Positions 26,439 through 51,735 of a stretch of 64,000 nucleotides of DNA are shown here, one piece after another (positions within the stretch are counted from its first letter, which is position 1; each line of letters starts with the position of its first letter). The position numbers and the translations under genes are program-made. The notes beneath the pieces were generated by a model. The model had not been told where the DNA came from. It worked only from the letters and a program-made list of their open reading frames with translations, and did not search any database. Origin of the DNA: a candidate division FCPU426 bacterium (GTDB taxonomy: Bacteria > Oederibacteriota > Muellerivitia > Muellerivitales > Muellerivitaceae); the NCBI GenBank assembly GCA_963796105.1, contig CAWCKJ010000004.1:544001-608000 (forward strand). Reading direction: 5' to 3'.

Positions 26439-28472
26439 TTACTGGGCCGGGGCCGGCTGGACTTTTTGGACGACCATATCGCTCTCGATCCCATTGACAT
26501 CGACCGCGGTGACCGCGAAATAATAGGTTTTGCCGTTCTTCAACGGCTTTAAAAGCGCCTTCAGGACGGTTTGGGGGGCCTTGGTCAGCCGCCGGAACCC
26601 CGACCCATCATCCGAAACATAAAGGTGATATCCCGCCGCGCCGTCCACGGCGTTCCAGGTCAGTTTCGCGGACCCATCCCCCGGCTCCACCTTGAATTGG
26701 GTGACAATCGAAAGTTTAGCGGGAGGGGCCGGCGTCGGGGTGGGAACGGGTTGTTTCGGAGGGGCGGCAAGCCTCACTTCCAGGGACTGGCTCAAGCCGC
26801 TCTCCGAGCCGTCGGAGCCGACGATCGAAACCGCGAACAGGTACAACTTTCCGGTATTGAGTTTCTTCAGGACGACTTTGGTTTCCGTGACCGCGCGGGC
26901 CGTCAATTTCTGGGGAGGCTTACCTGGATCCCCCAGGAGATAGAGGTTATAACCCGCCGGATTTCCAGTGGTGGGCTTGCTCCATTCCAGTTGAACCCCT
27001 TCCCCCGCCGGGGATGCTTTGAGACCCGAGGGCGGCGTTAGGGCCGCGACAGCCGCGGCGCCCGCCGTGACCGTCAGCTTGGACATGGCGCTTTCCCGTC
27101 CAGCGGCGCTCACCGAGACCACCCCAAAGGCGTATTCCTGGCCGTTCTTGAGGTTCTTGAGTTTGAGGGTGGTTTCCCTGATGGGCCTTGTAGTCAGTCG
27201 GACATAGGCCTGGGTTCCCGGTTTTTTCAGGTAGAGCTGGTACCCCAGCAGGTCCTTTTGCTGGATGGGATTCCAGGAGAGGACGATCTCCCGGTCGAGA
27301 GGCCTGGCCTGCAGACCCGCCGGGGCCGGAAGTCCCGAGGCCCCTTCCGCCCCGAAGCGGAAGATCATGGAGAACCGGTGGGTGCTTCCCAAGGTGCTTA
27401 ACGGCGTGAAGGCGTAGTCAAACTGGAGGAATTTGAGGTTCACCCCCATCCCGGCGGTCGGGTTCTGCTGGTCGCTGTTCCCCGCGAAACCCGCGCGCAA
27501 GGCGAGGGTCTTGTCGTACCAATATTCCGCCCCCACTGCCCCGGAATAGGCCTGGGCCCCGAACTGGTAGGAGTTGTCCAGGGCGAAAAGAAGGGTGTGC
27601 CTGGGGGTCTCCACCACCTTGCAGGCCAATCCCAGCCGCCCCAAGGTGGGCAGGGAGTCCGCCTCCGAGACGAACTTGACCTGCTGTCCCACGTTGAAGA
27701 CGCCCGCGCCGACGCTGAAGCCGCTCCCCGGAGTGAGCAAAACCCCGAAGTCGCCCCCCATGGCCTGGGCGTTGAAGCCCGCGATGTTCCGGAAGATGTA
27801 TTTGCCGGTGACCCCGAAGGAAATCAGGTCCTTGATCCGGAAGGCGAAGGAGGCCGAAAGATCGTTGTCCCCGGCCGAGACTGAGGGGGCAAGGCCGTTG
27901 GTGCTGTCGAAGGGCGGGACCCCCAGGTTGACGAAGCCGATCCCCACGCCGAAGGTGTTCTCGCCCGCGGGGAGGGGCAGCGCGATTCCGCCGAAGTTGT
28001 AGGCGATGTCGCTCAAGTAAAGCATGTGCAGGTAGCCGACCTCAGGGTGCTCCAGGAGGGCCAGGCCCGCCGGGTTCCAGGTCAGCGCGTTGACGTCGTC
28101 GGCCACCGCCGTGAAGGCCCCGCCCATTCCCTGGCTCCTGGCGCCCGCGTCGATCCCCAGGAAATCCGCGCCGCTAGTGAGTTGCTGCGCCTGCGCCCTG
28201 TTCCCCGAATAAAAAATAGGCACTATCACCACAGAGACACATGCCACCCACCTTATAAGATGAAAAGAAGGTGGTATAGTCCCGCATTTCCTAAATAAGT
28301 ACTTGAAAAGATGCGCGGGACAGAGACACAGCAAGCGGCAGATTTTTCTAAAAGGGGAACCGATTGCCCCCTTGGCCTGTTCCCGGATTTTACAATATTT
28401 CGAATTTATATTTTTTTCCTTTTTTTTCACTGTGTCTCTGAGTCCCTGTGGTGAAAAATTTTTTCTGATCAT
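26439..28472 (-). CDS. PorV/PorQ-family outer-membrane protein fused to three fibronectin type III domains
   Basis: FLGIDAGARSQGMGGAFTAVADDVNALTWNPAGLA, LALRAG, FDYAF...LGSTHRFS barrel motifs, then three W...GY-x-LY...Y-x-F-x-V...G-x-ES FN3 repeats; start uncertain (ATG 28472 overlaps the upstream stop). Confidence 0.85.
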   Translation of the reverse strand: MIRKNFSPQGLRDTVKKKEKNINSKYCKIREQAKGAIGSPFRKICRLLCLCPAHLFKYLFRKCGTIPPSFHLIRWVACVSVVIVPIFYSGNRAQAQQLTSGADFLGIDAGARSQGMGGAFTAVADDVNALTWNPAGLALLEHPEVGYLHMLYLSDIAYNFGGIALPLPAGENTFGVGIGFVNLGVPPFDSTNGLAPSVSAGDNDLSASFAFRIKDLISFGVTGKYIFRNIAGFNAQAMGGDFGVLLTPGSGFSVGAGVFNVGQQVKFVSEADSLPTLGRLGLACKVVETPRHTLLFALDNSYQFGAQAYSGAVGAEYWYDKTLALRAGFAGNSDQQNPTAGMGVNLKFLQFDYAFTPLSTLGSTHRFSMIFRFGAEGASGLPAPAGLQARPLDREIVLSWNPIQQKDLLGYQLYLKKPGTQAYVRLTTRPIRETTLKLKNLKNGQEYAFGVVSVSAAGRESAMSKLTVTAGAAAVAALTPPSGLKASPAGEGVQLEWSKPTTGNPAGYNLYLLGDPGKPPQKLTARAVTETKVVLKKLNTGKLYLFAVSIVGSDGSESGLSQSLEVRLAAPPKQPVPTPTPAPPAKLSIVTQFKVEPGDGSAKLTWNAVDGAAGYHLYVSDDGSGFRRLTKAPQTVLKALLKPLKNGKTYYFAVTAVDVNGIESDMVVQKVQPAPAQ
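28226..28454. repeat. Inverted-repeat element built of ACAGAGAC 8-mers with an 81-bp double-hairpin insert
   Basis: Left TCACCACAGAGAC[81 bp, 28239-28319]ACAGAGACACAGC; right CTGTGTCTCTGAGTCCCTGTGGTGA is a near reverse complement. Confidence 0.75.
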
Positions 28473-36593: not shown

Positions 36594-39500
36594 CTATCGG
36601 TTAATGGAGATGATGATCTGGTGGTAGCTGTAATTGAGGGGAAATCCCTCCCGGTAGGCCTCCACCATGAGGGTGTAATCCCCTTGGGGGAATGTTCCCG
36701 AAGGGACGGGCCAGGCGAAAGTCACTGGAAAAGCATGGGCTGAGACAAGGTGGCCCGAGGAGGTATCCAAGGCCCCTTGGATTGCTTTCGCGTTGTCCTG
36801 CATGAAGTACCAGTTGACCCCCGCGTTATTCGAATAAGCGAAATTCAGGTCCAGGGTGACGGGGTTTCCACCGCTGGTTTCGCTATAGGTGCTGTTGCTC
36901 AGGTTGGGATAGCCCGGATACTCTTCCGTGTAAAAATTGGCGGTGTTGGAGGTCAATCCGGGAAAGCGGAACCAGATGTTGTTGGTGGGCCCCGCTATGA
37001 TATTGAGTCCCGAGATCGTGACGGGATTGCCCGTGGTGACGGCCCCGTCCACGACCAGGTTGATCGTGGCGGGCTGGTTATACTGGAAGTTGGGGCTGTC
37101 GCAGTAAAGCTCCACCAACGGCATCTGGGCGATATGCGCGTTCCCGGTATAGGTTCCGCCGTCCAGGTATGTCCTTAACATGAAAACCAGGGCGGTCTTG
37201 CCCAACTCGGCCGTGCCGACGTCGGGGGAAATGGCCAGGCCGGATTCCACCACGTAAGCCACCTGGTTGTTGCTGGTAAGTTGGACCACGCCAGTACCGT
37301 TGTAGGTGGCGGAGCTCGTGTCATCGTAAAACAACCTGCTTACCGAGTCGGAGCTCACTTTGGGAATGGAAAGAGTGGTATGGGTGCTGTAAGGCGCGAT
37401 GCTCCACTCGCTGGTAGTCTGGGCTGTGCCGAGCGCCCAGGACCTGGTACAGCTGACCGATTGGGCCAGGGGATACTCGAACAGGGGATAACAGGTGACA
37501 CCTAAGCTTAAAAGAGTGGCGGAATCGGCGTTGGTCTGGTGGTTGAAGGAGCCGTCAAAAAAGGAGGTACAGCCGTAGGTATAAGCCCTGCTGGTTAAAT
37601 TCCGTCCGAAGCCGTTAAGGGAGTTCGTATTGCCGCTCGCGTCCTTCACGGGAACCGAGCTATAAAGCTTGCGGTAAAAAGTGGAAGTGGAGGCTGTGGC
37701 GTTGGCCACGGGAAGATTGCCATTGGTGGACCAGACCGAGTACATACTGTCGGGATAAAGCTCCCCCAGCCAGGATTTCTCATACCAGGTATCTTTCGTG
37801 TTGGAAATCACGCGCATATTGGTAAGCGTGGAATTGTAATTGATGATTTCAGCGACAGTAGAGAGGGCAGTTTGCGATGTGGTGTTGTAAGGGGTAGTGT
37901 TCATGGTGATGCCGGATGAGAACGGCATTTGGTCCGCCCCGAACTCCCCGCCAAAGCCGTAATAGTAGTAGCTGTACCCGTTCATGGTGGTCCAGATCGC
38001 GGTGGTGTTCAATAGCCCCTGGCGGACCATTTGATAAAAGCGCGGGAGATCCACGAAATTGGCGTCGCCTGGCGCGGCCCCTCCCGAGGAGGCGGCTCCC
38101 TCCCAGCCGATAATGTCGCCCGCCGCGCCGTAACCCGTGTATCCGTCATTGTTCAGGCCGACATGGGTACCACCGGCGTTGCCGTCCTTGAAATACCAGT
38201 TATAGGCGCTTGCCGGCATTTGGGCCGTTCCTCCGGTAAGCCCCCCGACCTTGCAGTCCAGGTAGGGCTCATGGCGGGGATCACCCAGGAACTGGTAACG
38301 CTCGGTATAGGGAGGAGGATAGCCGTTGCCCACCCAAACGTAGGTCCGGGAAAGGTTGGGAAAGCTGGAGGCTGTGACCGCGTTGCCGATCCGGGTCTCG
38401 ATGACGTGCTGGCCGACGAATTGGGTGGCCACCTGGCCGTAAATGCCGCTGGCGAGGGTGCCGTCGGTGGCGGGGGCGGTATAGGTGGAGGTTACGGGCA
38501 TATTCAGGGAGATGATCCACCGGGCTGTGTTCTTGGCGGCGGTGGCATTGGAATAGGTCAGGTCTTGCGCCGTGAATTGCGTGGTGGCATTGATGGCTGT
38601 CATTTCGGGACTGCAAGGGATGTACTCGGTCCCATATAAGTAGGTCGCGGCGGGAAGCCCGGTGTTATGCAAGCCAGGTGGACAGCGCAAGCGGGTGTTG
38701 TAGAGGGTGATGAGGGTCTGGGTCACGCCCGCGGTGGGGACCGGATTCTGGAGGCACCAGGAAACCGCGTTGCCCGCGTCGGTGTTGGTGACGGTTCCCC
38801 CGACCGGAGTGCCGGCGGAAGCATTCATGGGGCAGTAAACGTAGGTGGAGGCGCTGGAGCCGATGATGGCCGTCGCAGTTACGTCCGTGCTGGCGAGGGC
38901 CACATCCGGCAGGAACAGGCTGATGGCGGGGACTTCGGAGCCCTCCGCCGGCAGGGTTCCTCCCGGCGGGGGATTATCCAACCCATCGTAATAGGCATAG
39001 ACCCTCAATTTCACCTGCGTTGTAGTGCTTCCGGTAGGGTAGTAAAGCAGCTCCGGATGGGTCACCACGCGCTCATACGGGGTGGTTCCAGGAATCTTGG
39101 CGGCGTCCGAGTAATTGCGCATGGGCGGGAGGGGCAGCAGTTCCCCATGCAGGTTGACGATGAGGGCGTTCTCGAAAGACGCAGGCTGGGAAAGCATTCC
39201 CTCGATCAACATGCGCTCGCTGATCTCCGTGACCGAGTCCGCGGCGGGAATGACCTGGCTGGAATTGGCGGCCGCCTGGGTGACGGCTTGGTACATGAGC
39301 AGTTCATCGGGATATCGCAGGGAATTATTGTCCTTGTCCGCCGCTGGATAAACGGGACAGCCGCTGAACTGGCCGCTAGTGTAGTAAGCAGCCCCGTCCA
39401 CGTTGAAATTCCCGGTCACCTGCACACCCACGGAAGATGGGTCGAAAAATTGGTTAAGGGAACCGTTATCCGGCGCCACATTGTCCTCATGGGTGGTGCC

Positions 39501-40280
39501 TGGGTAAAAATAAACATAGGGAAGAACCCCGCCGGAGGTCGCTGCTAGATCCGTGGAAAGAGCGTTGTTGATGTAAGGAACATACTGGGTATCCCTCCCG
39601 TAGGAGGACCGGGTGATGAAATGCGGGCGGATCTGGAGGCCGGGGTTCCTTCCCTGCATGTCCGAAATGATGTTCTGGAAGGTCTTGTAGAGGATAGGCT
39701 CCTGGGTCCACCAGGCCGGGATATTGTTGATGCCCAGCACGTAGATATCAAAGACCTGGGTCGGGGGTACCAGGGAGGAGATGGTCCTCAACTGTCCTCC
39801 CACCTGCGCCAGCATTTCCCCGGGATCGTTGGGGTCCCGGTCCGAGGCGTAACGCCAGAGCGTCACGAAAACCTGGCGGGTATAGGAGTCGTTGGCCACG
39901 TGGTTGACCTCCACCTGGCGCATATAACGCCAATGGCCGTTGCTTTTGAAATTGCCGCTCAGGGAATCCCCCGGGTTGGGAACGAGGGGGGCCTTCACAT
40001 CCACGTTCTTGTCGGTGGTAAGGACGAAGTTGTACAACGACCCGTCGGTGTAATTGTCGAGGATTGAGATGCCGGTTTCCTTGCCGCTGACCAGGGACTT
40101 GAGTTCCTCGAACATCTGGATGGCTTTTTGGGTAGCGAAGGCGCGGTCGATAGTCCGAACCGTCTGCTTGGCCACGAAGGAGCGGGCCAGGATGACGGAG
40201 GAGGCCAAAGCCGCCAAGATAGCGGAGGCAATCATTAATTCAACCAGGGAGAAACCTTTTTGGTTAAGTTTCGCTCTCAT
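36594..40280 (-). CDS. Giant prepilin-type protein (PilV-like N-terminus with a large passenger region)
   Basis: MRAKLNQKG|FSLVELMIASAILAALA; about 1228 aa with a Thr/Ser/Gly/Tyr-rich extracellular-type body. Confidence 0.8.
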   Translation of the reverse strand: MRAKLNQKGFSLVELMIASAILAALASSVILARSFVAKQTVRTIDRAFATQKAIQMFEELKSLVSGKETGISILDNYTDGSLYNFVLTTDKNVDVKAPLVPNPGDSLSGNFKSNGHWRYMRQVEVNHVANDSYTRQVFVTLWRYASDRDPNDPGEMLAQVGGQLRTISSLVPPTQVFDIYVLGINNIPAWWTQEPILYKTFQNIISDMQGRNPGLQIRPHFITRSSYGRDTQYVPYINNALSTDLAATSGGVLPYVYFYPGTTHEDNVAPDNGSLNQFFDPSSVGVQVTGNFNVDGAAYYTSGQFSGCPVYPAADKDNNSLRYPDELLMYQAVTQAAANSSQVIPAADSVTEISERMLIEGMLSQPASFENALIVNLHGELLPLPPMRNYSDAAKIPGTTPYERVVTHPELLYYPTGSTTTQVKLRVYAYYDGLDNPPPGGTLPAEGSEVPAISLFLPDVALASTDVTATAIIGSSASTYVYCPMNASAGTPVGGTVTNTDAGNAVSWCLQNPVPTAGVTQTLITLYNTRLRCPPGLHNTGLPAATYLYGTEYIPCSPEMTAINATTQFTAQDLTYSNATAAKNTARWIISLNMPVTSTYTAPATDGTLASGIYGQVATQFVGQHVIETRIGNAVTASSFPNLSRTYVWVGNGYPPPYTERYQFLGDPRHEPYLDCKVGGLTGGTAQMPASAYNWYFKDGNAGGTHVGLNNDGYTGYGAAGDIIGWEGAASSGGAAPGDANFVDLPRFYQMVRQGLLNTTAIWTTMNGYSYYYYGFGGEFGADQMPFSSGITMNTTPYNTTSQTALSTVAEIINYNSTLTNMRVISNTKDTWYEKSWLGELYPDSMYSVWSTNGNLPVANATASTSTFYRKLYSSVPVKDASGNTNSLNGFGRNLTSRAYTYGCTSFFDGSFNHQTNADSATLLSLGVTCYPLFEYPLAQSVSCTRSWALGTAQTTSEWSIAPYSTHTTLSIPKVSSDSVSRLFYDDTSSATYNGTGVVQLTSNNQVAYVVESGLAISPDVGTAELGKTALVFMLRTYLDGGTYTGNAHIAQMPLVELYCDSPNFQYNQPATINLVVDGAVTTGNPVTISGLNIIAGPTNNIWFRFPGLTSNTANFYTEEYPGYPNLSNSTYSETSGGNPVTLDLNFAYSNNAGVNWYFMQDNAKAIQGALDTSSGHLVSAHAFPVTFAWPVPSGTFPQGDYTLMVEAYREGFPLNYSYHQIIISINR

Positions 40281-40306
40281 TTGTTTTTCCCCCAATCATC
40301 CCCCAT

Positions 40307-42451
40307 TTACAAATTGGGGATGGCCAGCAGGTTCTTCCTCTGGCTGATGTCTTCGTGGTATATCCCCACGATTTTCTGGGCTTGCGCGACCAGGCTCGGG
40401 CTGTAATAAATGGACCCGTAGTTGCCGTTGCTTCCACTGAGATTGACCGAACCTGGCGCGGCGGCCCGGCCATCCCCGGTATAGTAAGGCTGTCCCATGA
40501 TAACCGCGCCGTCGATCTCGCATCCGGCTCCCACCGTCAGGTTGCCCGTCACGAAAAGGACGCCCCCCCAATGGCTGGGAAGGATGCTGTTATTCCCGGC
40601 CTGAAGGACCAAATCGCCGTTGACCACCAACACCCCATAAGCCCCGGTCCTCACCGTACTGTCGCTTCTCCCGAGCTGGTCGTAGGGGGAGGCGTTTCCC
40701 GGCCCGTAGGTGACGCTTCCATCAAAATAGGAAAGCTTCCAGTTGCTCGTGATGATCATGGTCGCGGAGGGGTCACCCACGTAATCCGCCATGTTCTTGA
40801 CGTCCCCCAGGGACATGCCGAAAACGCTCGAGTCGGTCAGGGTGTTGTCCCCTGTCGAATAACAAATAACATTTCCCTGGAGATTGACCCCGGTAGTGGC
40901 CCCAACCGGGAGATTGCATTGGAGCGTGGGAGTCGCGGTGGGCGGGGCGGGAGTATTGGTGATGGTCGGGGTATTCGTGATGGTGGGAGTGAGGGTGGGA
41001 GTCGAAGTGATCGTGGGAGTCCAGGTTTCAGTAGGAGTATTAGTGGCCCCTGAGCCGCCGGTGGACGTCGGGGACGGTGTTGGGGTGCTGGTATACCCGT
41101 GTAGATTCGTGGCGGTGGGTGTGGGCGATATGGTTTTAGTCGGAGTCCACGTCACTGTCGGTGTGGCCGTGGGGCTCTGCGGACATGGCACGTTGATGGG
41201 AAAATCCGCCTCCAAGGTGCAGTGGGAATCGTCGCAGTAGGGTGAATTATTAGTGTTGTTGTCGCAATAATTCTTCGCCAAGACCACGATAGTTGCCGCT
41301 CCGGCGGGAACCAAAAGAGAATTGGTCACGTTAAAGGTTCCGCTTCCGGGCTGTGACCAGTAATTATTGAATCGATTAAAGCCATTGCAGGTTTCGCCAA
41401 ACCCGTTCCCATACCAAGTGATACTGTTGCCGTTGATGTCTTGAAAACCCACCACATAATAAACCCCCAGCCCATACCCGCAGGAATTCGCCAAGTTCGT
41501 GAAGGTAATGGGTATGTTCAAGGCGATACCAGCCGGGCCGCAAAGAGTGGTCGGTACGCTGATATACAAACCCGTACAGCCGGTGTCCCAGGTCGGGGTG
41601 ACGGTGGTAGTATTTGTTGGAGTAAATGTTTGGGTATAGGTATAGGTGTTAGTAAAAGTATCGGTAATGGTTTTGGTGGGGGTTTGAGTCGGGGTGTTGG
41701 TCGCGCAGGTGGCTCCGGTATTCACCACGAAACTATCCACCAAAGAGTATCCCGTAACACCTGCTTGGTGGGAACAGGCAAGGATTCCAACCAAGAAAGA
41801 GGAGCCGAATACGATGGTCTGTTGGGTCATTTGGTTCCAAATCGTGTCGTCGGTGGAGTAGTAGCTGGTCAGGGTATTCCCTGCTTTTGTGATCCTGACA
41901 TAACCGTTGGACCCGTTGGTAAAAGTACCGAAAGGGGAGGCATAGGCCGCGTTCGCCCCGATGGTGGCCCTATACCCCGATTCATAATTGTTGGATTTCG
42001 TCGCGTCCGCTGAGAAGAAAAGGTCGTTGTCCGCCGTGGAAGCCCTGACCATGAGCCCCGCTTTCGACGCGTTGTTATTCGTCGGAACCTTATTGACCGT
42101 CAGCCTCACGTCAAAGTCACAGCTGGTGGTCTGATAGATGAACCTGAAGTCATCAGCCGCGTTATAAATATCGGTTCCGCTCGCAACAATGGAAAGTGCC
42201 CCGCCGTTAATGGCCTGGCTTCCACCAGGGTTTGTCGCGTCGCCGATGTCGATCGCGGTCCAAACCGCATTTAATCCAGGCCCGGGAAAATTATCCGCAG
42301 TCAGGTTAGCAAAAGCGTTTTGAGTAGTGGTTAGAACCAGCAAAAAACCCAGCATCCCCCCGACACACCTTAGGCTGGCAATAGGTCGGGAGACCCTGAT
42401 TTGTTGGTTAAAATTTCGTTTCATTAATTTCAAATTGTTCGTCCGTTTCAT
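40307..42451 (-). CDS. Secreted modular protein: lectin/ConA-like domain, Thr-Pro linkers, Cys-rich module, PilX-type C-terminal beta-rich domain
   Basis: Signal peptide ...NAFA|N; SGTDIYNAADDFRFIYQ...KAGLMVR...YVRITKAGNTLTSYYSTD; TPTxTPT linkers; C-terminal VLVVNGDLVL...GVLFVTGNLTV...IDGAVI. Confidence 0.7.
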   Translation of the reverse strand: MKRTNNLKLMKRNFNQQIRVSRPIASLRCVGGMLGFLLVLTTTQNAFANLTADNFPGPGLNAVWTAIDIGDATNPGGSQAINGGALSIVASGTDIYNAADDFRFIYQTTSCDFDVRLTVNKVPTNNNASKAGLMVRASTADNDLFFSADATKSNNYESGYRATIGANAAYASPFGTFTNGSNGYVRITKAGNTLTSYYSTDDTIWNQMTQQTIVFGSSFLVGILACSHQAGVTGYSLVDSFVVNTGATCATNTPTQTPTKTITDTFTNTYTYTQTFTPTNTTTVTPTWDTGCTGLYISVPTTLCGPAGIALNIPITFTNLANSCGYGLGVYYVVGFQDINGNSITWYGNGFGETCNGFNRFNNYWSQPGSGTFNVTNSLLVPAGAATIVVLAKNYCDNNTNNSPYCDDSHCTLEADFPINVPCPQSPTATPTVTWTPTKTISPTPTATNLHGYTSTPTPSPTSTGGSGATNTPTETWTPTITSTPTLTPTITNTPTITNTPAPPTATPTLQCNLPVGATTGVNLQGNVICYSTGDNTLTDSSVFGMSLGDVKNMADYVGDPSATMIITSNWKLSYFDGSVTYGPGNASPYDQLGRSDSTVRTGAYGVLVVNGDLVLQAGNNSILPSHWGGVLFVTGNLTVGAGCEIDGAVIMGQPYYTGDGRAAAPGSVNLSGSNGNYGSIYYSPSLVAQAQKIVGIYHEDISQRKNLLAIPNL

Positions 42452-42481
42452 TTTCCCTCCTTTTGTTTCAAGGAGACTTAT

Positions 42482-43435
42482 TTATTGTGGACTCGTCATG
42501 CCCATGGCGGCGAAAGTGCCGATCTGGGAAACGGCCCCGTACAACATGGTTTGGTTGCTGCTGAGGGTCACCTGGCCGTGGATGCTGTGGACATAGAGCC
42601 CCGCGGAGTTGCCGTCCCCCGGGATCGGGTCCGGCATCACGAGGCTTAATTTCCGGAGTTCGGTGCTGAAGACGGCTTGCGCCACGAGTGAATTGGGGGC
42701 TGTCGTCATGGGCACGGAAAACAATCCCGTGACAGAGTTCACGGTTTTATCCAGTCTCTTGTAAACGTAGCCGTTGGCCACGATGTTCCAGACAAACCCA
42801 TCCCCGTTGATGAAGTTTGTGGACCTTTTTCCGGTGACATCCTGGACAGCGTTGGGAATGGGCGTCGCTTGTTGTCTCACAACCTCGTACCTTCCCCAAT
42901 AAAGAGCTTTTGCTGTCACAGGATCATCGAGGGGGTATTCCTTCACGAGGCCGATGGATGCGTCGATGGTGTCGGATAGCTGGGAGTTGGCCGTGTTGTT
43001 TTGGGGGTTGAAAGCCTGGTCCACGTTGGAGAAGCCGGGAAGGGGGGTCGCGATTTGTCCGAAGGTGGCGGTGTTATTGGCCGCGCCTGCCACGACTCCC
43101 CCGTTGGCCTGCTGGCGCGCGTACCAGCCGAGGGCGTCCACGAGACCGGCCCTGGCCACGTTTTCCGCCTCGCCCACGTAGAGGGCGCTTTCCTTGGACG
43201 ACCGCGCGGAATTTGCGACCATCTTGAAAGCGATGGTGATCAGCATGGTGGCCACCACCATGAAAATAGCGGCCATGACCAGGGCGGAACCTTCGCGTTT
43301 TCCGAGGGTTTGGAAGAAACGGCTAAAAAGGGAGGATGAATTCTTATTCCGCGAAGAGCCGGAAACCCCGAAGAAACCCCAGAAAGCCTCGCTCAAGGGG
43401 TGAAAAGAAGGGGATGTGCGCCGACGTGGACTCAT
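42482..43435 (-). CDS. PilX/PilK-like N-terminal pilus assembly protein
   Basis: REG|SALVMAAIFMVVATMLI (no Glu5, as in PilX) and AENVARAGLVDA; AAGGAG RBS. Confidence 0.75.
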   Translation of the reverse strand: MSPRRRTSPSFHPLSEAFWGFFGVSGSSRNKNSSSLFSRFFQTLGKREGSALVMAAIFMVVATMLITIAFKMVANSARSSKESALYVGEAENVARAGLVDALGWYARQQANGGVVAGAANNTATFGQIATPLPGFSNVDQAFNPQNNTANSQLSDTIDASIGLVKEYPLDDPVTAKALYWGRYEVVRQQATPIPNAVQDVTGKRSTNFINGDGFVWNIVANGYVYKRLDKTVNSVTGLFSVPMTTAPNSLVAQAVFSTELRKLSLVMPDPIPGDGNSAGLYVHSIHGQVTLSSNQTMLYGAVSQIGTFAAMGMTSPQ

Positions 43436-43897: not shown

Positions 43898-44725
43898 TCA
43901 ACTAGAAAACTCACCGATCAAAAAGGTGTGGTCCGAGGGTTTTTCCAGGCCCCGGGGCTTGGTGTCGATCCAAATTTTTTGGAGGCGCTTTACCATGGGC
44001 GGGGTTCCCAGGATATGGTCGATCCTCCATCCGAGGTTCCGCTTGAAGGTGCCGGGCTGGCGGAAATCCCAAAAGGTGTAGTGTCCCGGCCCCTTCTCTT
44101 TTTCCCTGAACAAGTCAGTCCATTTCCCTTCCGCGCATTCCTTCAAAGCGTTTCGCGCGTCGATGTGGAAGCAGGGATGGTCGCGGTTCCCCTGGGGATT
44201 GTTCAAGTCGATTTCCTCCGGAGCCACGTTCAGGTCCCCCATCCAAAGGGCCGGCCGGCCCAAGGGAACCTCTTTTTGAAAATATTTTTTCAGGTCCGCC
44301 AGGAATTTGAGCTTGTAACGGTACTTCTCGGACTCGATCTCAAAGCCCTGCGGGACGTAGGTGTTGACGAGAAGCACACCTTCGTACTCGCCCGCCAGGA
44401 AGCGGGCCTGCTCCTCGGCTTCGCCGGGATAAAGCCGGTCCGTCACGAGGCTCACGGGTTTCTTGGAAATGAAAGCCACGCCGTTGTAGCTTTTTTGCCC
44501 CCGGAAAACCACGTTCCATCCCGCCGATTCCAGGGGCTCCCTCGGGAACTCGTGGTCCTGGACTTTCGTTTCCTGAACAGCCAGGACGTCGGGCTTTTCC
44601 TTTTTCAGCCAGTTGAGCACGATATCCAGCCTGGCCCTCAGGGAATTGGCGTTGAACGTCGCGATCTTAAGTTTCCCGGAAACAACGCCACTGATTTTTT
44701 TTTTAGGAATTGATCTTTTTGGCAT
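43898..44725 (-). CDS. xth: Exodeoxyribonuclease III
   Basis: KIATFNANS, QETK, YNGVA, GDLNVAP, GWRIDH, PSDH. Confidence 0.95.
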   Translation of the reverse strand: MPKRSIPKKKISGVVSGKLKIATFNANSLRARLDIVLNWLKKEKPDVLAVQETKVQDHEFPREPLESAGWNVVFRGQKSYNGVAFISKKPVSLVTDRLYPGEAEEQARFLAGEYEGVLLVNTYVPQGFEIESEKYRYKLKFLADLKKYFQKEVPLGRPALWMGDLNVAPEEIDLNNPQGNRDHPCFHIDARNALKECAEGKWTDLFREKEKGPGHYTFWDFRQPGTFKRNLGWRIDHILGTPPMVKRLQKIWIDTKPRGLEKPSDHTFLIGEFSS

Positions 44726-44788
44726 TAGAGTCCTCTATTTCTCGAATAACTGTATTTATGAAAACTTAAAAACGCAAAAACCTTTTTC

Positions 44789-44959
44789 GCCACGGATGCG
44801 CCGATCATTTGTAAAAACAGATTGAGATCGGTGCGATACCAGCCTCCATTAAAGCTCAATGGAAGGCCCATGCGTCGAAGGTTCAAACCGAGGCGCGCTT
44901 CTGGTGTGCCGGGCCATCCATTAAAAGGCCCGGCCTGGCATGCAGGGGATTCATGGGAT
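44789..44959. repeat. GxxExxY-associated repeat, left inverted end with nested hairpin inserts
   Basis: GCCACGGATGC[inserts]AGGGGATTCATGGGAT; reverse-complement homologs at 45503-45626, 45735-45760, 47149-47251 and 51193-51295. Confidence 0.8.
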
Positions 44960-44995
44960 AAAAGCGAAACCCTAAAAAATCCATCCAACGGAAAA

Positions 44996-45414
44996 TTATT
45001 TTTTCGTCCATTCTTCCCGCGCGGAAATCCTCCTGAATTGAAGTTCCGGCTTCCCGAAATTCAGAAGCAGGCAAACCTCTAAACCCGTCGCTTTGAGGTA
45101 GTTCAGGCACTGTGCGTAATGCACATTATCCAAAGCTTGAACAGCTTTCAATTCCACTAGAACCTTTTCTTCCACCAGCAAATCAGCGACATATTCCCCA
45201 ACCAATACGTCGCGGTATTTGACTTCAATGGGTCTTTGCTGTACCGCTTTTAAGCCGCTATGCCGCAACTCCACAGCCAAAGCGTTCTCATAAACTTTTT
45301 CCAAAAAACCGCTTCCAAGGTGTTCATGACCGTAAAGGCGCAGCCGATGATTTTCTCGGTAATATCATTAAAAGCGAATGTCTGATTGGAAGAATTTTCC
45401 TGTTTTATATCCAT
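44996..45414 (-). pseudogene. GxxExxY protein (PD-(D/E)XK nuclease-like), frameshifted or sequencing error
   Basis: ITEKIIGCAFTVMNTL joins [GSG]FLEKVYENAL...ADLLVEEKVLVELK...QCLNYLKATGLEVCLLLNFG; one G is missing at about 45315-45316. Confidence 0.85.
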
Positions 45415-45502
45415 CTCATAATCTCTCTGAAAATTTGGCCACTTCGTTGTTCCCACAAATGTTTTATCTTTTTTTACCTTAAAAGGTTTTTTTCTTTATT
45501 TT

Positions 45503-45760
45503 ATCCTACGCATCCCCTGCATGCCCCCTGAAACGGCAAAGCCGTTTCCTTCCATAAAACTGTTATGGAGGTCGGTATCGTGCCGATTTCCTTAACTGCT
45601 TTATGGTGAATCGGTACATCCGTGGCTAATTGCCCTTTTCTTTTACAGTTTATCCTAATTATTGTTCCTGATCCTTTTCTTAAAAGTCTTGTCCTGTTCA
45701 AACTATCTGTTTAGTCGGTTTTTTGCCTTTGTCCATCCCATGTATCCCCTGCATCCGTGG
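45503..45760. repeat. GxxExxY-associated repeats, right end (one degenerate long copy and one short core copy)
   Basis: ATCCTACGCATCCCCTGCAT...ACATCCGTGGC (45503-45626) and the insert-free core ATCCCATGTATCCCCTGCATCCGTGG (45735-45760). Confidence 0.75.
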
Positions 45761-45772
45761 TTAAATTTCTTT

Positions 45773-46078
45773 TTAGTTCGTCTCGTAATCCACCGCCGCG
45801 CGCGCTTCCGTGACCCTCTGGACGAACGCGACCACCTTCTGGTGCTCGGGATGGTTCCGGTACCGGGCCAGGCCGTCCTTGTCCTGGAAGGCCGAAACCA
45901 AAACCACGTCGTAATTCGCGCCGGACGCCTCCATCTGGAACTCCACTTCCAGCTCGACGATTTGCGGGATGAAGCCCCGCAGGGCTTCCAGCATGTCCCG
46001 GAGTTTCAGGAAGTTCTCCCCCTTGGAGGCGCCCTCAGCCTGTTCTTTCAGCTTCCACATGACGATATGCCTGATCAT
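45773..46078 (-). CDS. Dabb family (stress-responsive A/B barrel) protein
   Basis: MIRHIVMWKLK...YDVVLVSAF...YRNHPEH...AVDYE. Confidence 0.9.
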   Translation of the reverse strand: MIRHIVMWKLKEQAEGASKGENFLKLRDMLEALRGFIPQIVELEVEFQMEASGANYDVVLVSAFQDKDGLARYRNHPEHQKVVAFVQRVTEARAAVDYETN

Positions 46079-46430
46079 GGACACCCCCCGGATTCGTATG
46101 GAACTGGTTAAAAATCATACAAGAGCCCCCAATAAAAACAAACCCCTCGGCCGGATTCATTACAGGTTGTCCAATTAAAACTTCGGTAACATCCGCGCTC
46201 TTGGCCCACTCTCCGTAAAACCCTTTTGGCCTTACAGTTGTCAAGGGACGTCCCTCCGCACCTCAGTGTAGGGAAAAGCTTTGGGTCGTTTCTAGGAATG
46301 ACATCTGAACAACCGGCCTACTTTGGAGATATTTTGAAAGTGGTCCTCAGAGAGAAGATTTCAAGGGGAGCAACCAAGGCGGGGGAAGAGGTGGCATAGC
46401 TTTTACCACCATGTCTTTAGCTTAGGGTTA

Positions 46431-46649
46431 TTATGCCATCGCTACTGTAACTTGTTCCAACACTACCTTCTTCAACACCTCGTCCAAATGCCCTATATGG
46501 TCTTGGGCGTCTAATAATTCAATCCCGGCCACGGTTCCATCCTGGGCGTAATCAACGGCCAGTCCGTCCTCCAATTCCTTGGTGGTGACAGTCGTATCCT
46601 GGAAGCCGATGTACAGCACGTCCGTTTGTTTGTTGTATGTGACTTTCAT
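46431..46649 (-). CDS. DUF2283-domain protein (putative antitoxin)
   Basis: MKVTYNKQTDVLYI...VDY...G-x-V-x-GIELLDA. Confidence 0.85.
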   Translation of the reverse strand: MKVTYNKQTDVLYIGFQDTTVTTKELEDGLAVDYAQDGTVAGIELLDAQDHIGHLDEVLKKVVLEQVTVAMA

Positions 46650-46660
46650 TTATGCCCCCC

Positions 46661-46915
46661 TTAAAAGTAGAAAACGTAAACAGTGTCCACTATAATTTCG
46701 TTTTCCAATTCCTCAAAAATGACCTTTACCTGCTTTGTATTATACGTCTTTTCGTTCCACTGTTTCCCATAGGGGAAGCTTTTCTTGCATTGAAGCCGGT
46801 TTTTCTTAGCTCCTTCCCACTTAGCCTCCCGTATAGCTGTCACTGCTTCATCTTCACTGGCCCCCCGCAAAGCCATCCTTGAGCGCGTGTGGCCGTCAAA
46901 TGAAATAGGTTTCAT
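46661..46915 (-). CDS. DUF4258-domain protein (putative RelE-fold toxin)
   Basis: F-x-x-HTRSRMALRGASEDE...VKVIF...IIVDTVY; directly upstream of the DUF2283 gene. Confidence 0.75.
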   Translation of the reverse strand: MKPISFDGHTRSRMALRGASEDEAVTAIREAKWEGAKKNRLQCKKSFPYGKQWNEKTYNTKQVKVIFEELENEIIVDTVYVFYF

Positions 46916-47077
46916 TGGCTGATTATATCCTCTCATGTATCTTCAGAAATACCTAAAAGGCGAGAATTAAAGGCTATTGGACGGGTATGAATTTTTAGCG
47001 GCTAACCGAAACGGGTGAACCCCCATTGCTGAAAATTTGGGGAGTAATAACCCGAATTATGTTTCGAATTTTTAGAC

Positions 47078-47251
47078 GGATTTCCGCGCGGGAAGAATGG
47101 ACGAAAAAATAATTTTCCGTTGGATGGATTTTTTAGGGTTTCGCTTTTATCCCATGAATCCCCTGCATGCCAGCCTTCCATTAAACTTTTATGGAGGCTG
47201 GTATCGCACCGATCTCAATCTGTTTTTACAAATGATCGGCGCATCCGTGGC
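47078..47251 (+). repeat. Inverted copy of the GxxExxY 3' end plus its flanking repeat
   Basis: Near-identical reverse complement of 44789-45030, lacking the extra insert of about 67 bp; includes the last codons ISAREEWTKK-stop. Confidence 0.9.
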
Positions 47252-47447
47252 TAAAATCTTTTTCGTTTGGTAGTTTATCCTCAACGTTTTATTTTAGTTT
47301 GGCCTATGATTATTCCTTGTTTTTTCTTTCCTTAATTCAATCCCATATATCTGTGGCTAGATATTGTTTTGTCTTTTTTTCTTCGGAATCCGGCCAACCC
47401 TTGGGACAATGGGTTCTCTTAACTCATCTTCAGGTATGGAAGGCGCT

Positions 47448-49973
47448 ATGGGCCGGAACCGCGATCATTTTTTCCTGCCGGCTTTTTTCCAGCCGGTGAA
47501 GGGGTCCCCGAAATGGATTTTTTCCGCCATGGTCCTGGGACTATTGGGCCAGGGGTGGATGGGATTGGAAAAATCTCCCGAGACCCTCGCGGTCGGCTTG
47601 GTGATCTTTGCCGCCGCCGTTTTCATCTTCCTGCGCTCCGCGAAACCTTTCGAGGCGCCGCGAACCCACTCCCGGGAGCTGAGTTCCCGGACGGAATGGG
47701 GCTGGTTTTCCCTGATTCTCGCGGTTTCGGTTTTCATGAGGTTCTGGAGGCTCCGGGACTTTCCCCCGGGGCTTTTCCTCGACCAGGGATACCAGGGTTA
47801 CTCGGCGCTTCGCATCCTCCGCGAGGGGTACCGCCCCCTCTTCGATCAGGACTTGTTGAAGGCCCCGGCACTCTTTCTTTACGAACTGGCCGCCTGGTTC
47901 ACTCTCGCCGGACCGGGTGAGCTCTCCTCAAAGGTGTTTTTCGTCCTGGTTTCCCTCGCGGCCCTTCCCTTCGTTTATTGGTCCTTCAGGGAACTGGCCG
48001 GCCCCCGGAAGGCCCTCCTGGCCTTTTTCATCCTGGGCGTCATGCGCTGGCACGTGAACCTGAGCCGTTGGGGGCATTTCGCCATCCATGATTATTTTTT
48101 CATGTTCTCCAGCCTCTTTTTTTTCCTGTACGGCCTCCGAACGGAAAAGAGATGGGCCTTCTTAACATCGGGATTTCTTTTGGGTTTGGGCATGTATTAC
48201 TACGAGGCTTACGACGCCTTTCCCGCGCTTATGTTGGTTTATATGCTTTATGAGTTTCTCAACCGCAAGGACAAAACCGGACTCAAGCTTCCCTTCGCCG
48301 GAATGGCCCTCCTGTTCCTGGCGGTTTCGGCTCCCCTGTTCATTTACGGCTGGGCGAAAGGCGGTTTGGGCCAGCGCATGGGAGAGGTTTCCCTGTTCAA
48401 TGTCATGTGGATGCCCTTCACCCTGAAGCCCTTGTGGGAGAGCCTGGTTAGCCTCGCTCTCATGTTCAATTGGAAAGGGGACCTCAACCAGCGTCACAAT
48501 TTCCACGAGGCTCCCATGCTGGACCCCATGACGGGGGTATTGTTCGTTCTGGGGCTGTTCTTCCTGCTTCGGTCCTGGAAAAAGCGGGAGAATTTTTACG
48601 CGCTGTCGGGCCTCGCGGTTTTGAGCCTTCCGGGAGTCCTCTCCTTATACATGCCCCATGCCCTCAGGTTGAACGGCATGGTTCCCTTCGTTGCCCTCGC
48701 CGCGGCGGCCCCCCTGGATCGCCTCCTGGAAGGGATTCCTTCCCTCCCCAAGCCCCGCAGAGTCCTGGCCGCGTTTTTTATGGCGGGTCTCCCGCTTTGT
48801 CTGGCGGCCTATTCCAACTTTCACGCCTATTTCACCCTTCAAATGGGCGACCCGGAATGCTGGTATTGGTGGGACCCCGTTCCCACTGTGATCGGCCGGA
48901 GAATACTGGAAAAAGGCGCCGGTACCGAATTCGAGGTGACCAACCGGTGCAAGGAAAACGCCACGGTCCTTTTTCTCGCCTATCCCCACAGGGACAGCTA
49001 CAAATCCTTCGACAGCATGGACCGCATGCCCCCTCTCCCAGCCGATCCTTCAAAAAACGTGGAATATGCCTTGGAATCCCAGTGGCAGGGAATCCGTTCC
49101 TTGATCCCCCGCTTGTTCCCGGATTGCAGGATGGAATCCCTCGCGGACCCCGGCGGGCACCCGGCCTGCTATTTTTATGACGTTTCCGCCGGGGTCCTCA
49201 ACCGGGTCCGGGGACTTTCCGCCACTTACAAACCCTCCGGAAAAAAAGTCCAGGCGGGATTATTCCCTAACAGCCTGCCGGAGGGCCCCTTTCTGGCTGA
49301 TTTCCAGGGATGCGTCTATCTTCCCTTGAATGGGGATTATTCCTTGGAAATCTCCGGAAACACCCAAGCCTCTGTCCGGATCGGTGAAAAAAATATCCAG
49401 CCGGGCGGGGAGTTCAGCGCGTCGCCGGGTTTCTATGGAATACTCGCGCGGGTGAGGGCTCCGCGTGGAAAACCCCTTCTTTTAATCACTCTCCTCGGGC
49501 CCGACGGCCATAAAACAGCCTTGGGCCCGGAAAACCTGACGACTCTCCCCTTAAACCACGGCCTTCTCGCCATCCGCGATCTTTCCGGCTACAAGCTTCT
49601 ACCCGCCAAATTTTCCAATTGGGAACAAGTCCTCGATTATGACTACGGCTACAGTTTCCCCTTCCTTTCCCAGGGGGGCCTGGAAAACGCCGGCTCCGTG
49701 AGGTGGATAGGCGAATTGACCGCGCGTGTTTCCGGATTGTACCGCCTGCGGTTCGAATCCCCTTCCGGCGTCACCTTGACCCTGGATGGAAAAAATTACC
49801 TCTGCAAGGAAGAGGGCCCTGGCGTCGATCTTCACCTTGAAAAAGGCCCCCATTCGATTGTGATCGACGCGCCGGACCGCCCGGATCATTTGGCTTTTTA
49901 TTGGACCCCGCCCGGCCAAAAGGATGAGGAAGTCGTACCGATGGAGGCTTTTGGAACCACGCGATTGGAATGA
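47448..49973 (+). CDS. GT39/ArnT-like (PMT_2) membrane glycosyltransferase with C-terminal PA14-like domains
   Basis: RFWRLRDFPPGLFLDQG, WHVNLSR, many TM helices; C-terminal SVRWIGEL...GLYRL...LEKGPHSI...YWTPPG...EVVP; start uncertain (47364-47448). Confidence 0.8.
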   Translation: MGRNRDHFFLPAFFQPVKGSPKWIFSAMVLGLLGQGWMGLEKSPETLAVGLVIFAAAVFIFLRSAKPFEAPRTHSRELSSRTEWGWFSLILAVSVFMRFWRLRDFPPGLFLDQGYQGYSALRILREGYRPLFDQDLLKAPALFLYELAAWFTLAGPGELSSKVFFVLVSLAALPFVYWSFRELAGPRKALLAFFILGVMRWHVNLSRWGHFAIHDYFFMFSSLFFFLYGLRTEKRWAFLTSGFLLGLGMYYYEAYDAFPALMLVYMLYEFLNRKDKTGLKLPFAGMALLFLAVSAPLFIYGWAKGGLGQRMGEVSLFNVMWMPFTLKPLWESLVSLALMFNWKGDLNQRHNFHEAPMLDPMTGVLFVLGLFFLLRSWKKRENFYALSGLAVLSLPGVLSLYMPHALRLNGMVPFVALAAAAPLDRLLEGIPSLPKPRRVLAAFFMAGLPLCLAAYSNFHAYFTLQMGDPECWYWWDPVPTVIGRRILEKGAGTEFEVTNRCKENATVLFLAYPHRDSYKSFDSMDRMPPLPADPSKNVEYALESQWQGIRSLIPRLFPDCRMESLADPGGHPACYFYDVSAGVLNRVRGLSATYKPSGKKVQAGLFPNSLPEGPFLADFQGCVYLPLNGDYSLEISGNTQASVRIGEKNIQPGGEFSASPGFYGILARVRAPRGKPLLLITLLGPDGHKTALGPENLTTLPLNHGLLAIRDLSGYKLLPAKFSNWEQVLDYDYGYSFPFLSQGGLENAGSVRWIGELTARVSGLYRLRFESPSGVTLTLDGKNYLCKEEGPGVDLHLEKGPHSIVIDAPDRPDHLAFYWTPPGQKDEEVVPMEAFGTTRLE

Positions 49974-50179
49974 TTCATCAAATGAGCCCCAGAATTTTTC
50001 CAAGCCGGAGGTATTAACCCATTTCCCAGGGATTTCGGTAATTACCAAAGGAAACCCGTTATTCCTTTTTGGTCTTTAAACCCCGGAGGAAAACGGCTAA
50101 TTTAGTGGGCCTGTCCGGCGGGGGTGATTTTGCTCGAAACCCTCCTTATAGTTGACCATCAAATGGGGAGAAATATTAA

Positions 50180-50986
50180 ATGGGTTTGTTAAGCGGAAAG
50201 AAAGCTTTCATATTCGGCGTGGCCAACGACAGGTCGATCGCCTGGGGCATCGCCCAGGCCTTCCACCAGGAAGGGGCCGAACTGGGCTTCAATTTCCTGG
50301 GGGAGGCGCTTGAAAAAAGGGTCCGTCCCCTGGCGGAGTCCGCCGGAGCGAAACTGATTCTTCCCTGCGACGTCTCCAAGGACGACCAGATCCAGGCCCT
50401 CTACCGGGAGGTGGAGAAAACCTGGGGAAAACTCGACATCCTGGTGCATTGCGTGGCTTTCGCCAATAAGGACGAGCTCTCCGGCGCCTTTTCCAACACC
50501 AGCCGCGCGGGCTTCCATCTCGCGCTCGACATTTCGGCCTACAGCCTGATCGCCATCACCCGCCCCGCCCTTCCCCTGATGGGCGCGGGCGGGAATATCA
50601 TCACCCTCACTTATTACGGCTCCGAAAAGGTCATCCCCAATTACAACGTCATGGGAGTGGCCAAGGCCGCCCTGGAAAGCTCGGTTCGCTACCTGGCCAG
50701 CGATTTGGGGCCCCGCGGAATCAGGGTCAACGCCATTTCCGCCGGGGCCATCAAGACCCTGGCCGCCTCCGGCGTGGGGGGGTTCAAGACCATGCTGAAG
50801 ACCTCCGAGGGATTGACCCCGCTGAAGCGCAACGTCACCCAGGAGGAAGTGGGCAAGACCGCCCTGTACCTGGCCAGCGACCTGGCCTCGGGCGTGACGG
50901 GCGAGGTGATCTACGTGGACGCCGGCGCCAACATCATCGGCATGCATTTCGACGAGAAAAAGGAAGACGCCCCGCCTAAGCCTTAA
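50180..50986 (+). CDS. fabI: Enoyl-ACP reductase (NADH)
   Basis: [40 protein letters not shown]. Confidence 0.97.
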
Positions 50987-51038
50987 AACCCAATAGCGAA
51001 TAACCATTTCTTTCTGTACAACCCCCAAAAATTCTTTT

Positions 51039-51295
51039 GCCACGGATTCAGGGGATACACATGGATAGGCTGAAGAAAAAGAATAAATTTCTTTGGTACC
51101 CACAGACTATGCCATAACTTCTATTGTTCCCAAGCCCTGCCCATCTCCAGGATGAGTTGGGACAACCTTGTCTCTTTCCTGTGTTTCTTTTAATCCCATG
51201 AATCCCATGCATGCCAGCCTTCCATTAAACTTTTATGGAGGCTGGTATCGCACCGATCTCAATCTGTTTTTATGGATGATCGGCGCATCCGTGGC
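51039..51295. mobile_element. Gene-less (MITE/REPIN-like) element with GxxExxY-type inverted ends
   Basis: Left GCCACGGATTCAGGGGATACACATGGAT (51039-51066); right ATCCCATGAATCCCATGCAT[double hairpin]CCGTGGC (51193-51295). Confidence 0.6.
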
Positions 51296-51360
51296 TAAGA
51301 AAGGTCTTTGCATTTCATCTTTAAGGAATGAATCTCTGTTGCTTTAATCCTGTTTTTTTT

Positions 51361-51735
51361 TTATTTAGAAATCCCAGCAGGTTCCCAAACTGAACAAAAA
51401 CTTCTGACTTCGATTTTTTCCGGCGGAAGTTTTTGGTGGATAATTTTAATAGGCACATCGGCGCAGGTCTGAAATCCTTCCGCCCGCGCGGTCAAGATCA
51501 CCCTCCCCCTGGGGGAGAAATCCCATCCTTTTGGCGAGAGCCAATATTCCAAAACCAGTTCTTCCGGCGCGTTTTTCTCGAACCTCAGCCTATGAAACCC
51601 CGAGAAATCCAGCGGCCGCCCTAATTGCCCCGCGAAGGCTTGAAGCTCCGCCGCTTGGCCGGGCCAACTGCCCTTTTCCAAAAAATATGATTGGGTCAAG
51701 GTTAAAATTACGCTAAGTTCTTTTTTAAGGTTCAT
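51361..51735 (-). CDS. Hypothetical protein
   Basis: 124-aa ORF with a GAAGGGGAG RBS, directly downstream of radC. Confidence 0.55.
   Translation of the reverse strand: MNLKKELSVILTLTQSYFLEKGSWPGQAAELQAFAGQLGRPLDFSGFHRLRFEKNAPEELVLEYWLSPKGWDFSPRGRVILTARAEGFQTCADVPIKIIHQKLPPEKIEVRSFCSVWEPAGISK

What the first reader, a model, noticed from the sequence alone, without database searches (positions are those of the whole stretch)
44789..45760. GxxExxY nuclease gene bracketed by inverted short-period repeats: candidate RAYT/REPIN-like mobile system with a PD-(D/E)XK enzyme
The gene lies between a left arm beginning GCCACGGAT (44789) and right arms ending ATCCGTGG (45626 and 45760). The insert-free core ATCCCATGT-ATCCCCTGC-ATCCGTGG has a 9-bp period. 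The same inverted arms bracket a gene-less 257-bp unit at 51039-51295, and a related 8-bp-period family (CACCACAGAGACACAGAG) forms the element at 28226-28454. This parallels an autonomous RAYT plus non-autonomous REPINs, but with a functionally uncharacterised GxxExxY protein. Mobilisation by GxxExxY is a hypothesis.
Basis: partly seen in the sequence, partly recalled or inferred. Interest (0 to 1): 0.8.

Follow-up and report, generated by a model that had tools for sequence, protein, structure and literature searches.

The report
Repeat-armed GxxExxY nuclease cassette, nested hitch-hikers
A small, recently broken gene for a predicted DNA-cutting enzyme of unknown function sits between mirror-image short repeats that accompany this gene family across many bacterial phyla and differ by enzyme subtype; the enzyme likely cuts its own repeats and so helps them spread, although here many gene-less copies lie inside an ordinary miniature transposon that likely carried them.

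Summary
Observation confirmed; interpretation partly supported. A frameshifted GxxExxY gene (45414-44996) lies between inverted arms of 9-bp period. The same design flanks 64 of 76 GxxExxY genes from diverse genomes. Arm type follows the protein tree, not the host (4 changes; shuffles at least 21), and matches a two-residue C-terminal loop difference. The cassette fills the Dabb-xth junction in 2 of 25 relatives, is under purifying selection (dN/dS 0.10) and has no recent copies, like RAYT. The predicted fold is a Cas4/lambda-exonuclease-type PD-(D/E)XK nuclease.

Correction: in this genome 45 of 74 arm loci carry ends of an IS4-type MITE with 9-bp target duplications, and 76-bp twin hairpins invaded the arms later. 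Copy number here is therefore not evidence of GxxExxY-driven movement. Bare pairs without MITE ends or target duplication occur in three relatives.

Best reading (0.5): an arm-specific nuclease whose cuts are repaired by copying. It is neither a RAYT nor an Ssn. I found no description of the system in the searchable literature. This scan noted it before in at least 11 genomes.

The parts
44789..44959 (+). Arm downstream of the gene: three 9-bp units, interrupted at 44798-44941 by a 76-bp twin hairpin (H) that itself holds a 68-bp insert
   Evidence: (orthologue lacks the insert)
44867..44934 (+). 68-bp insert (J) inside the twin hairpin; two related copies elsewhere in the genome, both in H-like context
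44996..45414 (-). GxxExxY (TIGR04256/PF13366) gene of the short-loop clade, frameshifted by a one-base loss at 45315-45316
45503..45626 (-). Inner upstream arm with an H-type insert at about 45521-45617
45735..45761 (-). Outer upstream arm, insert-free three-unit core, just downstream of the Dabb stop codon
43898..44725 (-). xth (exodeoxyribonuclease III), downstream host gene of the junction
45773..46084 (-). Dabb gene, upstream host gene of the junction
47078..47256 (+). Inverted near-identical copy of the gene's 3' end plus arm with H but without J (100% over 96 bp, 95% over 84 bp); a further single arm ends at 47357
51039..51295 (.). Gene-less inverted arm pair with an H insert, between fabI and a 129-aa gene; G013 has a full GxxExxY cassette with the same arms at this junction
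28226..28454 (.). Gene-less pair of the 8-bp arm family with an H-like insert in the left arm; same family as flanks the second, long-loop GxxExxY gene of this genome

Best explanation
The cassette is a small PD-(D/E)XK-fold gene between two inverted arrays of three short units whose sequence tracks the protein subtype; the protein likely binds and cuts these arms, and host repair likely copies arms, arm pairs and rarely the whole cassette to new intergenic sites without target duplication. Shown: the anatomy, the cross-phylum association, arm-protein covariation, conserved catalytic-type residues, presence or absence at junctions, long residence under purifying selection, and a frameshift in this copy. 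Predicted: the fold. Inferred: binding, cutting, the role of the C-terminal loop in specificity, and copying by repair (recalled knowledge: such hydrolytic nucleases do not join strands, so the host must). In this genus the arm pairs also hitch-hike in a 211-bp IS4-type MITE, likely moved by a resident IS4 transposase, and are invaded by an unrelated 76-bp twin hairpin.
For: Association: inverted score median 40 in 76 loci against 18 for far flanks and 17 for mismatched loci; 64 of 76 exceed the mismatched 95th percentile. Covariation: arm class changes 4 times on the tree of 80 labelled rows, shuffles 21 or more; both main classes occur within most well-sampled phyla; the C-terminal loop is 8 residues in 73 of 73 measured AG-arm genes and 5-6 in 46 of 48 others. 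Each genome's paralogues carry different arm families. Enzyme: E23, E72 and K74 invariant, D62, Q86 and Y90 at 90% or more in 87 sequences; model pLDDT 96; best matches Cas4 SSO0001 (Z 10.0, rmsd 3.5, 102 aligned) and lambda exonuclease; dN/dS 0.10. Distribution: none of 15 genomes without the gene has 5 or more arms of either family tested, while 20 of 26 with it do. G013 has 83 arms, an intact cassette with the same arms, bare pairs, no IS4_1 match and only a weak partial RAYT match. Copying signs: the local duplicate at 47078; identical inserts in both arms of a G021 cassette; tandem arm units; no target duplication above control around 40 sampled pairs.
Against: No activity was tested. In this genome 45 of 74 arm loci carry MITE ends. 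G011 and G022 have 39 and 38 arms but no short-loop gene was found. By eye only 7 of the 13 arm-rich genomes have a gene flanked by closely matching arms. Covariation rests on 2 independent pairs, which cannot reach significance; co-inheritance of arms and gene would also give it. No recently duplicated cassette (best 68% identity in 105 pairs). 12 of 76 diverse loci do not exceed the control percentile, and only 15 of 76 exceed the control maximum. The local-copying statistic concerns the H hairpin, not the arms. Empty junctions are in other genera, so no base-exact empty site was seen.
Confidence: 0.5

Rival explanations
1. The protein recognises its arms but serves the host, as SsnA does with NTS repeats (filtering incoming single-stranded DNA or steering recombination). 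The arms spread by drift, gene conversion and carriage in other elements, not through the nuclease.
For: Long residence at fixed junctions and purifying selection; no recent self-copies; 7 of 72,556 plasmid records; Ssn precedent (PMC11893778, sections 7 and 12 read).
Against: 10 of 75 family copies are broken; presence is patchy with 0-8 matches per genome; many coexisting arm families fit turnover better than one host job.
Confidence: 0.25
2. The arms are moved by ordinary transposases (IS4 MITEs, Y1/RAYT enzymes) and GxxExxY is a passenger whose arms are simply inherited with it.
For: True for many copies here: 10 of 17 complete MITE-like units have 7 or more of 9 matching flank bases against 0.27% by chance; the IS4 has similar ends and 9-bp duplications; 16 Y1 matches in the genome; arm-rich G011 and G022 lack the matching gene but have RAYT-family matches.
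Against: The MITE end was found only in 2 of 41 genomes while 13 are arm-rich; the cassette itself has no MITE ends; arms do not bracket the Y1 genes; G013 has neither vehicle; a passenger model does not explain why nearly every gene copy keeps two matching arms.
Confidence: 0.15
3. The arms act in RNA: they pair into a long stem that is processed out of, or regulates, the host transcript, as for rRNA intervening sequences (recalled).
For: The G013 cassette folds into one closing stem (z -10.4); cassettes often sit between same-strand genes (crude ORF calls).
Against: No excess of G-U over A-C oppositions on the sense strand (144 against 128, p 0.36, 83 cassettes); any inverted repeat folds well; no credible Rfam match in 44600-51500; some genes sit between outward-facing arms.
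Confidence: 0.1

Closest known systems
REPtron / RAYT with REPINs (PMC3116915, PMC8266576, PMC3733652, passages read; bioRxiv 10.1101/119735, abstract and outline)
   Same: Enzyme gene flanked by cognate inverted repeats; many gene-less inverted pairs; family-specific repeats; single, mostly vertically kept gene copies; tandem clusters.
   Different: PD-(D/E)XK fold, not an HUH tyrosine transposase, so no covalent strand transfer is expected; arms are arrays of three 8-10-bp units, not GTAG-tagged palindromes; spacers vary freely.
Ssn GIY-YIG single-strand nucleases with NTS/SRM repeats (PMC11893778; abstract, sections 7 and 12 read)
   Same: Small single-domain nuclease gene flanked on both sides by its own repeat; repeats abundant elsewhere; many enzyme-repeat pairs; hydrolytic chemistry.
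   Different: Different superfamily; SRM is a self-contained hairpin while these arms are periodic and pair only with each other; no activity data here.
PDDEXK_3 / PF13366 / TIGR04256 (PMC3424549, one table row read)
   Same: The protein is a member; listed with unknown function and multiple transfers.
   Different: The row read does not mention flanking repeats.
IS4-family MITEs
   Same: The 211-bp carrier has terminal inverted repeats, 9-bp target duplications and a resident IS4 with similar ends (14 of 17 and 12 of 17 bases, read).
   Different: Its cargo is an arm pair; it explains many gene-less copies in this genus, not the cassette.

Membership tests
GxxExxY / PDDEXK_3 | Score above the curated cut-off | tested here: met
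   114.6 bits against 35; orthologue 147.4 and 143.8 bits
PD-(D/E)XK nuclease | Core fold with D and E-x-K residues | tested here: met
   Model pLDDT 96; Z 10.0 to Cas4 SSO0001; E72 and K74 invariant, D62 at 90% or more
PD-(D/E)XK nuclease | Nuclease activity and substrate | not testable with these tools
   Needs an assay
RAYT/REPIN | HUH/Y1 tyrosine transposase | tested here: not met
   Only TIGR04256/PF13366 match; Y1 matches lie elsewhere
RAYT/REPIN | GTAG-tagged palindromic REP unit | tested here: not met
   Arms are periodic arrays without that tag
RAYT/REPIN | Gene flanked by a genome-abundant repeat that also forms gene-less inverted pairs | tested here: met
RAYT/REPIN | Single divergent gene copies kept at a site | tested here: met
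   At most 68% identity in 105 within-genome pairs; dS like neighbours
Ssn/SRM | GIY-YIG domain | tested here: not met
Ssn/SRM | Site-specific single-strand cleavage at the cognate repeat | not testable with these tools
   Needs an assay
IS4-family MITE (carrier of gene-less pairs) | Terminal inverted repeats and fixed-length target duplication | tested here: met
   10 of 17 with 7 or more of 9 matching bases, chance 0.27%
IS4-family MITE (carrier of gene-less pairs) | Resident transposase with matching ends | tested here: inconclusive
   NF033592 269 bits, 10 copies, ends similar but not identical
IS4-family MITE (the cassette itself) | MITE ends around 44789-45761 | tested here: not met
   Scored bare; the arm ends 11 bases from the Dabb stop codon
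RNA intervening sequence | Stem under RNA pairing selection | tested here: inconclusive
   G-U 144 against A-C 128; no RNA data

The most novel reading that the evidence does not exclude
GxxExxY cassettes are an undescribed, very widespread class of mobile DNA in which a roughly 120-residue PD-(D/E)XK nuclease reads phased 8-10-bp sites through its C-terminal hairpin, cuts the paired arms and spreads itself and gene-less arm pairs by host repair. It would be a third enzyme superfamily, after RAYT and Ssn, to run its own repeat population, and a natural library of tiny site-specific nucleases whose targets can be read from the flanks.
Probability: 0.4. Interest if true: 0.88.

Novelty: new variant of a known kind. 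Interest (0 to 1): 0.7.

Why it matters
About 22,000 stored stretches of the species collection match the family pattern (tool estimate) and the family has no assigned function. Each gene comes with its candidate substrate and a candidate specificity loop, so function is directly testable with short oligonucleotides. If it holds, it explains a large class of intergenic short-period hairpins and adds very small site-specific nucleases. This locus also shows that copy number can mislead: three other small elements are nested with the arms.

Tried and rejected
Wide structure search: the machine was busy; the second-look alignment was used instead. Sequencing runs: no RNA holder listed; two low-share DNA runs gave only short pieces. 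One piece agrees with the one-base-short reading but extends just one base past the site and may come from the source sample. Assembly error as the cause of the frameshift is unlikely but not excluded: 9 full IS4 copies differ by one indel column, outside the ORF. Y1/RAYT genes as partners of the arms: arms do not bracket them; the one read in full has its own terminal repeats. A gene bracketed by H hairpins as H's enzyme: 13 candidate ORFs look by eye like host genes (not scanned against libraries). Co-orientation with neighbours: crude ORF calls, no background, not claimed. Gene remnants inside gene-less pairs: only the two known genes score. Longer forms: 89 hits, mostly singletons fused to unrelated domains; no transposase or recombinase family among the listed Pfam hits, apart from three fusions to an Rpn-like tail (weak search). 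First C-terminal pattern: 76 of 77 agreed, but one row agreed through two offsetting errors and five new rows were misread, so loop length replaced it. The automatic arm classifier also called 12 of 65 control flanks; 37 of 117 rows had no strict label and were left out of the tree count; family rows were labelled by eye. Literature: GxxExxY 3 papers, 2 listed, incidental mentions; PDDEXK_3 1; TIGR04256 0; searches on STRR, intervening sequences and small dispersed repeats showed no description in their listings. Subscription journals and supplements were not searched.

Full report
OBSERVATION. The stretch is as described. A GxxExxY gene lies on the minus strand at 45414-44996 (TIGR04256, 114.6 bits) between Dabb and xth. 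Compared with the intact orthologue in the same-genus genome G001 it lacks one base at 45315-45316. Downstream of it is one arm (44789-44959); upstream are two (45503-45626, 45735-45761). Each arm is three 9-bp units. The arm pattern matches 91 times in the genome and 0 times when read backwards. 51039-51295 is a gene-less pair of the same arms and 28226-28454 a pair of an 8-bp family, which also flanks the genome's second GxxExxY gene.

FOUR NESTED LAYERS. (1) The arms. (2) A 76-bp twin hairpin, H, inserted into two of the three arms here and absent from the G001 arms. All 51 seed copies have CA (45) or CG (6) on both sides; the first base on the right was fixed by the search pattern. There are 172 near-full copies. 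(3) A 68-bp unit inside one H, with two relatives elsewhere. (4) A MITE of about 211 bp around many gene-less pairs. Its ends resemble those of a resident IS4 (10 copies, 9 complete, all 9 with 9-bp target duplications; NF033592 269 bits). Of 23 left ends, 17 had a right end, and 10 of these had 7 or more of 9 matching flank bases, against 0.27% by chance. Of 74 arm loci, 45 carry at least one MITE end, 19 carry both and 29 are bare; 3 of 209 control windows scored. The cassette itself is bare. The 51039 unit scores bare, but its G001 counterpart shows a MITE-type flank by eye, so its origin is open.

ASSOCIATION ACROSS LIFE. Among 80 loci from the species collection, 76 had enough flank. Their inverted-repeat score has median 40, against 18 for far flanks (n 65, maximum 50) and 17 for mismatched loci (n 820). 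64 of 76 exceed the mismatched 95th percentile and 15 of 76 the control maximum. Units are mostly 8-10 bp. On a quick tree of 117 proteins, the 80 rows with a strict label change arm class 4 times; 500 shuffles gave at least 21. Both main classes occur within Acidobacteriota, Bacteroidota, Chloroflexota, Planctomycetota, Pseudomonadota and Verrucomicrobiota, so arms travel with the gene, not the host. The C-terminal loop is 8 residues in 73 of 73 measured AG-arm genes and 5-6 in 46 of 48 others, with 10 rows unmeasured. Only 2 independent pairs underlie this, so it is a lead for specificity, not proof.

DISTRIBUTION IN RELATIVES. 26 of 41 genomes have the gene. None of the 15 without it has 5 or more arms of either family tested; 20 of the 26 do. 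Kin are not independent and most gene-less genomes are distant; one of them (G018, 80% complete) shows a degenerate pair by eye. Dabb and xth are neighbours in 25 of 26 loci, and the gene sits between them in 2, both of this genus; several others hold gene-less pairs of other arm families. At the fabI junction, conserved in 13 of 19 loci, G013 has a full cassette with the same arms where this genome has the 257-bp unit. Between G000 and G001 the gene has dS 0.63, within its neighbours' 0.47-0.77, and dN/dS 0.10 over 102 codons: it was inherited at the site and broke recently. Paralogues within a genome are at most 68% identical in 105 pairs and carry different arm families; 10 of 75 are broken. 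The MITE end was found only in G000 and G001. In 40 regions sampled from G011, G013 and G022 the pairs have unshared flanks and, apart from one tandem array, no target duplication above control. Against the reading: G011 and G022 are arm-rich without a short-loop gene, and by eye only 7 of 13 arm-rich genomes have a gene with closely matching arms.

PROTEIN. The model of the G001 orthologue has pLDDT 96. Foldseek ranks lambda exonuclease and Cas4 SSO0001 first; the second look gives Z 10.0, rmsd 3.5, 102 aligned. E23, E72 and K74 are invariant and D62, Q86 and Y90 nearly so in 87 sequences. That QxxxY marks RecB/Cas4-type nucleases, which often act on single strands, is recalled knowledge. A shared fold does not show function.

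MECHANISM. Most likely the protein recognises three phased sites in each arm and cuts there, and host repair copies the neighbouring DNA. This fits the lack of target duplications, the inverted duplicate of the gene end at 47078-47256, the identical inserts in both arms of a G021 cassette, tandem arm units, and genes flanked by direct repeats of whole arm pairs. Nearby H copies are 90% or more alike in 9.3% of 312 pairs at 0.4-10 kb against 0.6-0.7% at long range, but that measures H. No RNA-pairing bias was found. Binding, cutting and copying are all inferred.

COMPARISON AND NOVELTY. It works like a REPtron or an Ssn-SRM pair but belongs to neither: no HUH or GIY-YIG domain and no tagged palindrome (papers read as listed under Closest known systems). 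Searches for GxxExxY, PDDEXK_3 and TIGR04256 gave only incidental mentions; subscription journals and supplements were not covered. Earlier notes of this scan report the same system in at least 11 genomes; they are unchecked leads.

VERDICT. A real and apparently undescribed nuclease-repeat system, seen here as a broken copy overgrown by other small elements. Interest 0.7.

Noticed in passing
window 44798-44941, 45521-45617, within 47078-47256 and 51039-51295; L013:710-1310: 76-bp twin-hairpin family H, 172 near-full copies, inserted at a CA or CG dinucleotide in several repeat families and forming tandem arrays; REPIN-like in shape, enzyme not found
   Followed up: partly
G000 C4:1346951-1347463 and others; L244: 211-bp IS4-type MITE with 9-bp target duplication carrying an arm pair; found only in this genus
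   Followed up: yes
window 46431-46936: Two-gene module (91-aa ORF plus DUF2283 protein), toxin-antitoxin-like by layout; with a glycosyltransferase-like gene (47364-49973) it fills the Dabb-fabI interval, where G001 has a MITE instead
   Followed up: partly
L003-L018: 16 Y1 matches, 14 with open frames of about 157-320 aa; the one scanned passes the RAYT model, has a DnaA-like tail and its own terminal repeats (TIRtron-like)
   Followed up: partly
L178-L181 (viral contigs): A divergent GxxExxY clade in viral contigs is flanked by long AT-rich inverted arms of about 12-bp period
   Followed up: no
L099, L106, L110, L113, L146, L167, L173: Some GxxExxY genes lie between outward-facing arms or between direct repeats of whole arm pairs, as if from circle integration or tandem amplification
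   Followed up: partly
P0001, P0002; P0019, P0020, P0027: Tandem double-domain GxxExxY proteins, and three fusions to an Rpn-like C-terminal tail
   Followed up: no
L049-L074, Dabb-xth junction: The same junction holds different small repeats in different genera (AT-type, AG-type, heptamer-like arrays, other hairpins): an insertion hot spot
   Followed up: partly
window 36594-43435: Large prepilin-like and Thr/Pro-rich repeat proteins with little or no library match (two scanned)
   Followed up: no
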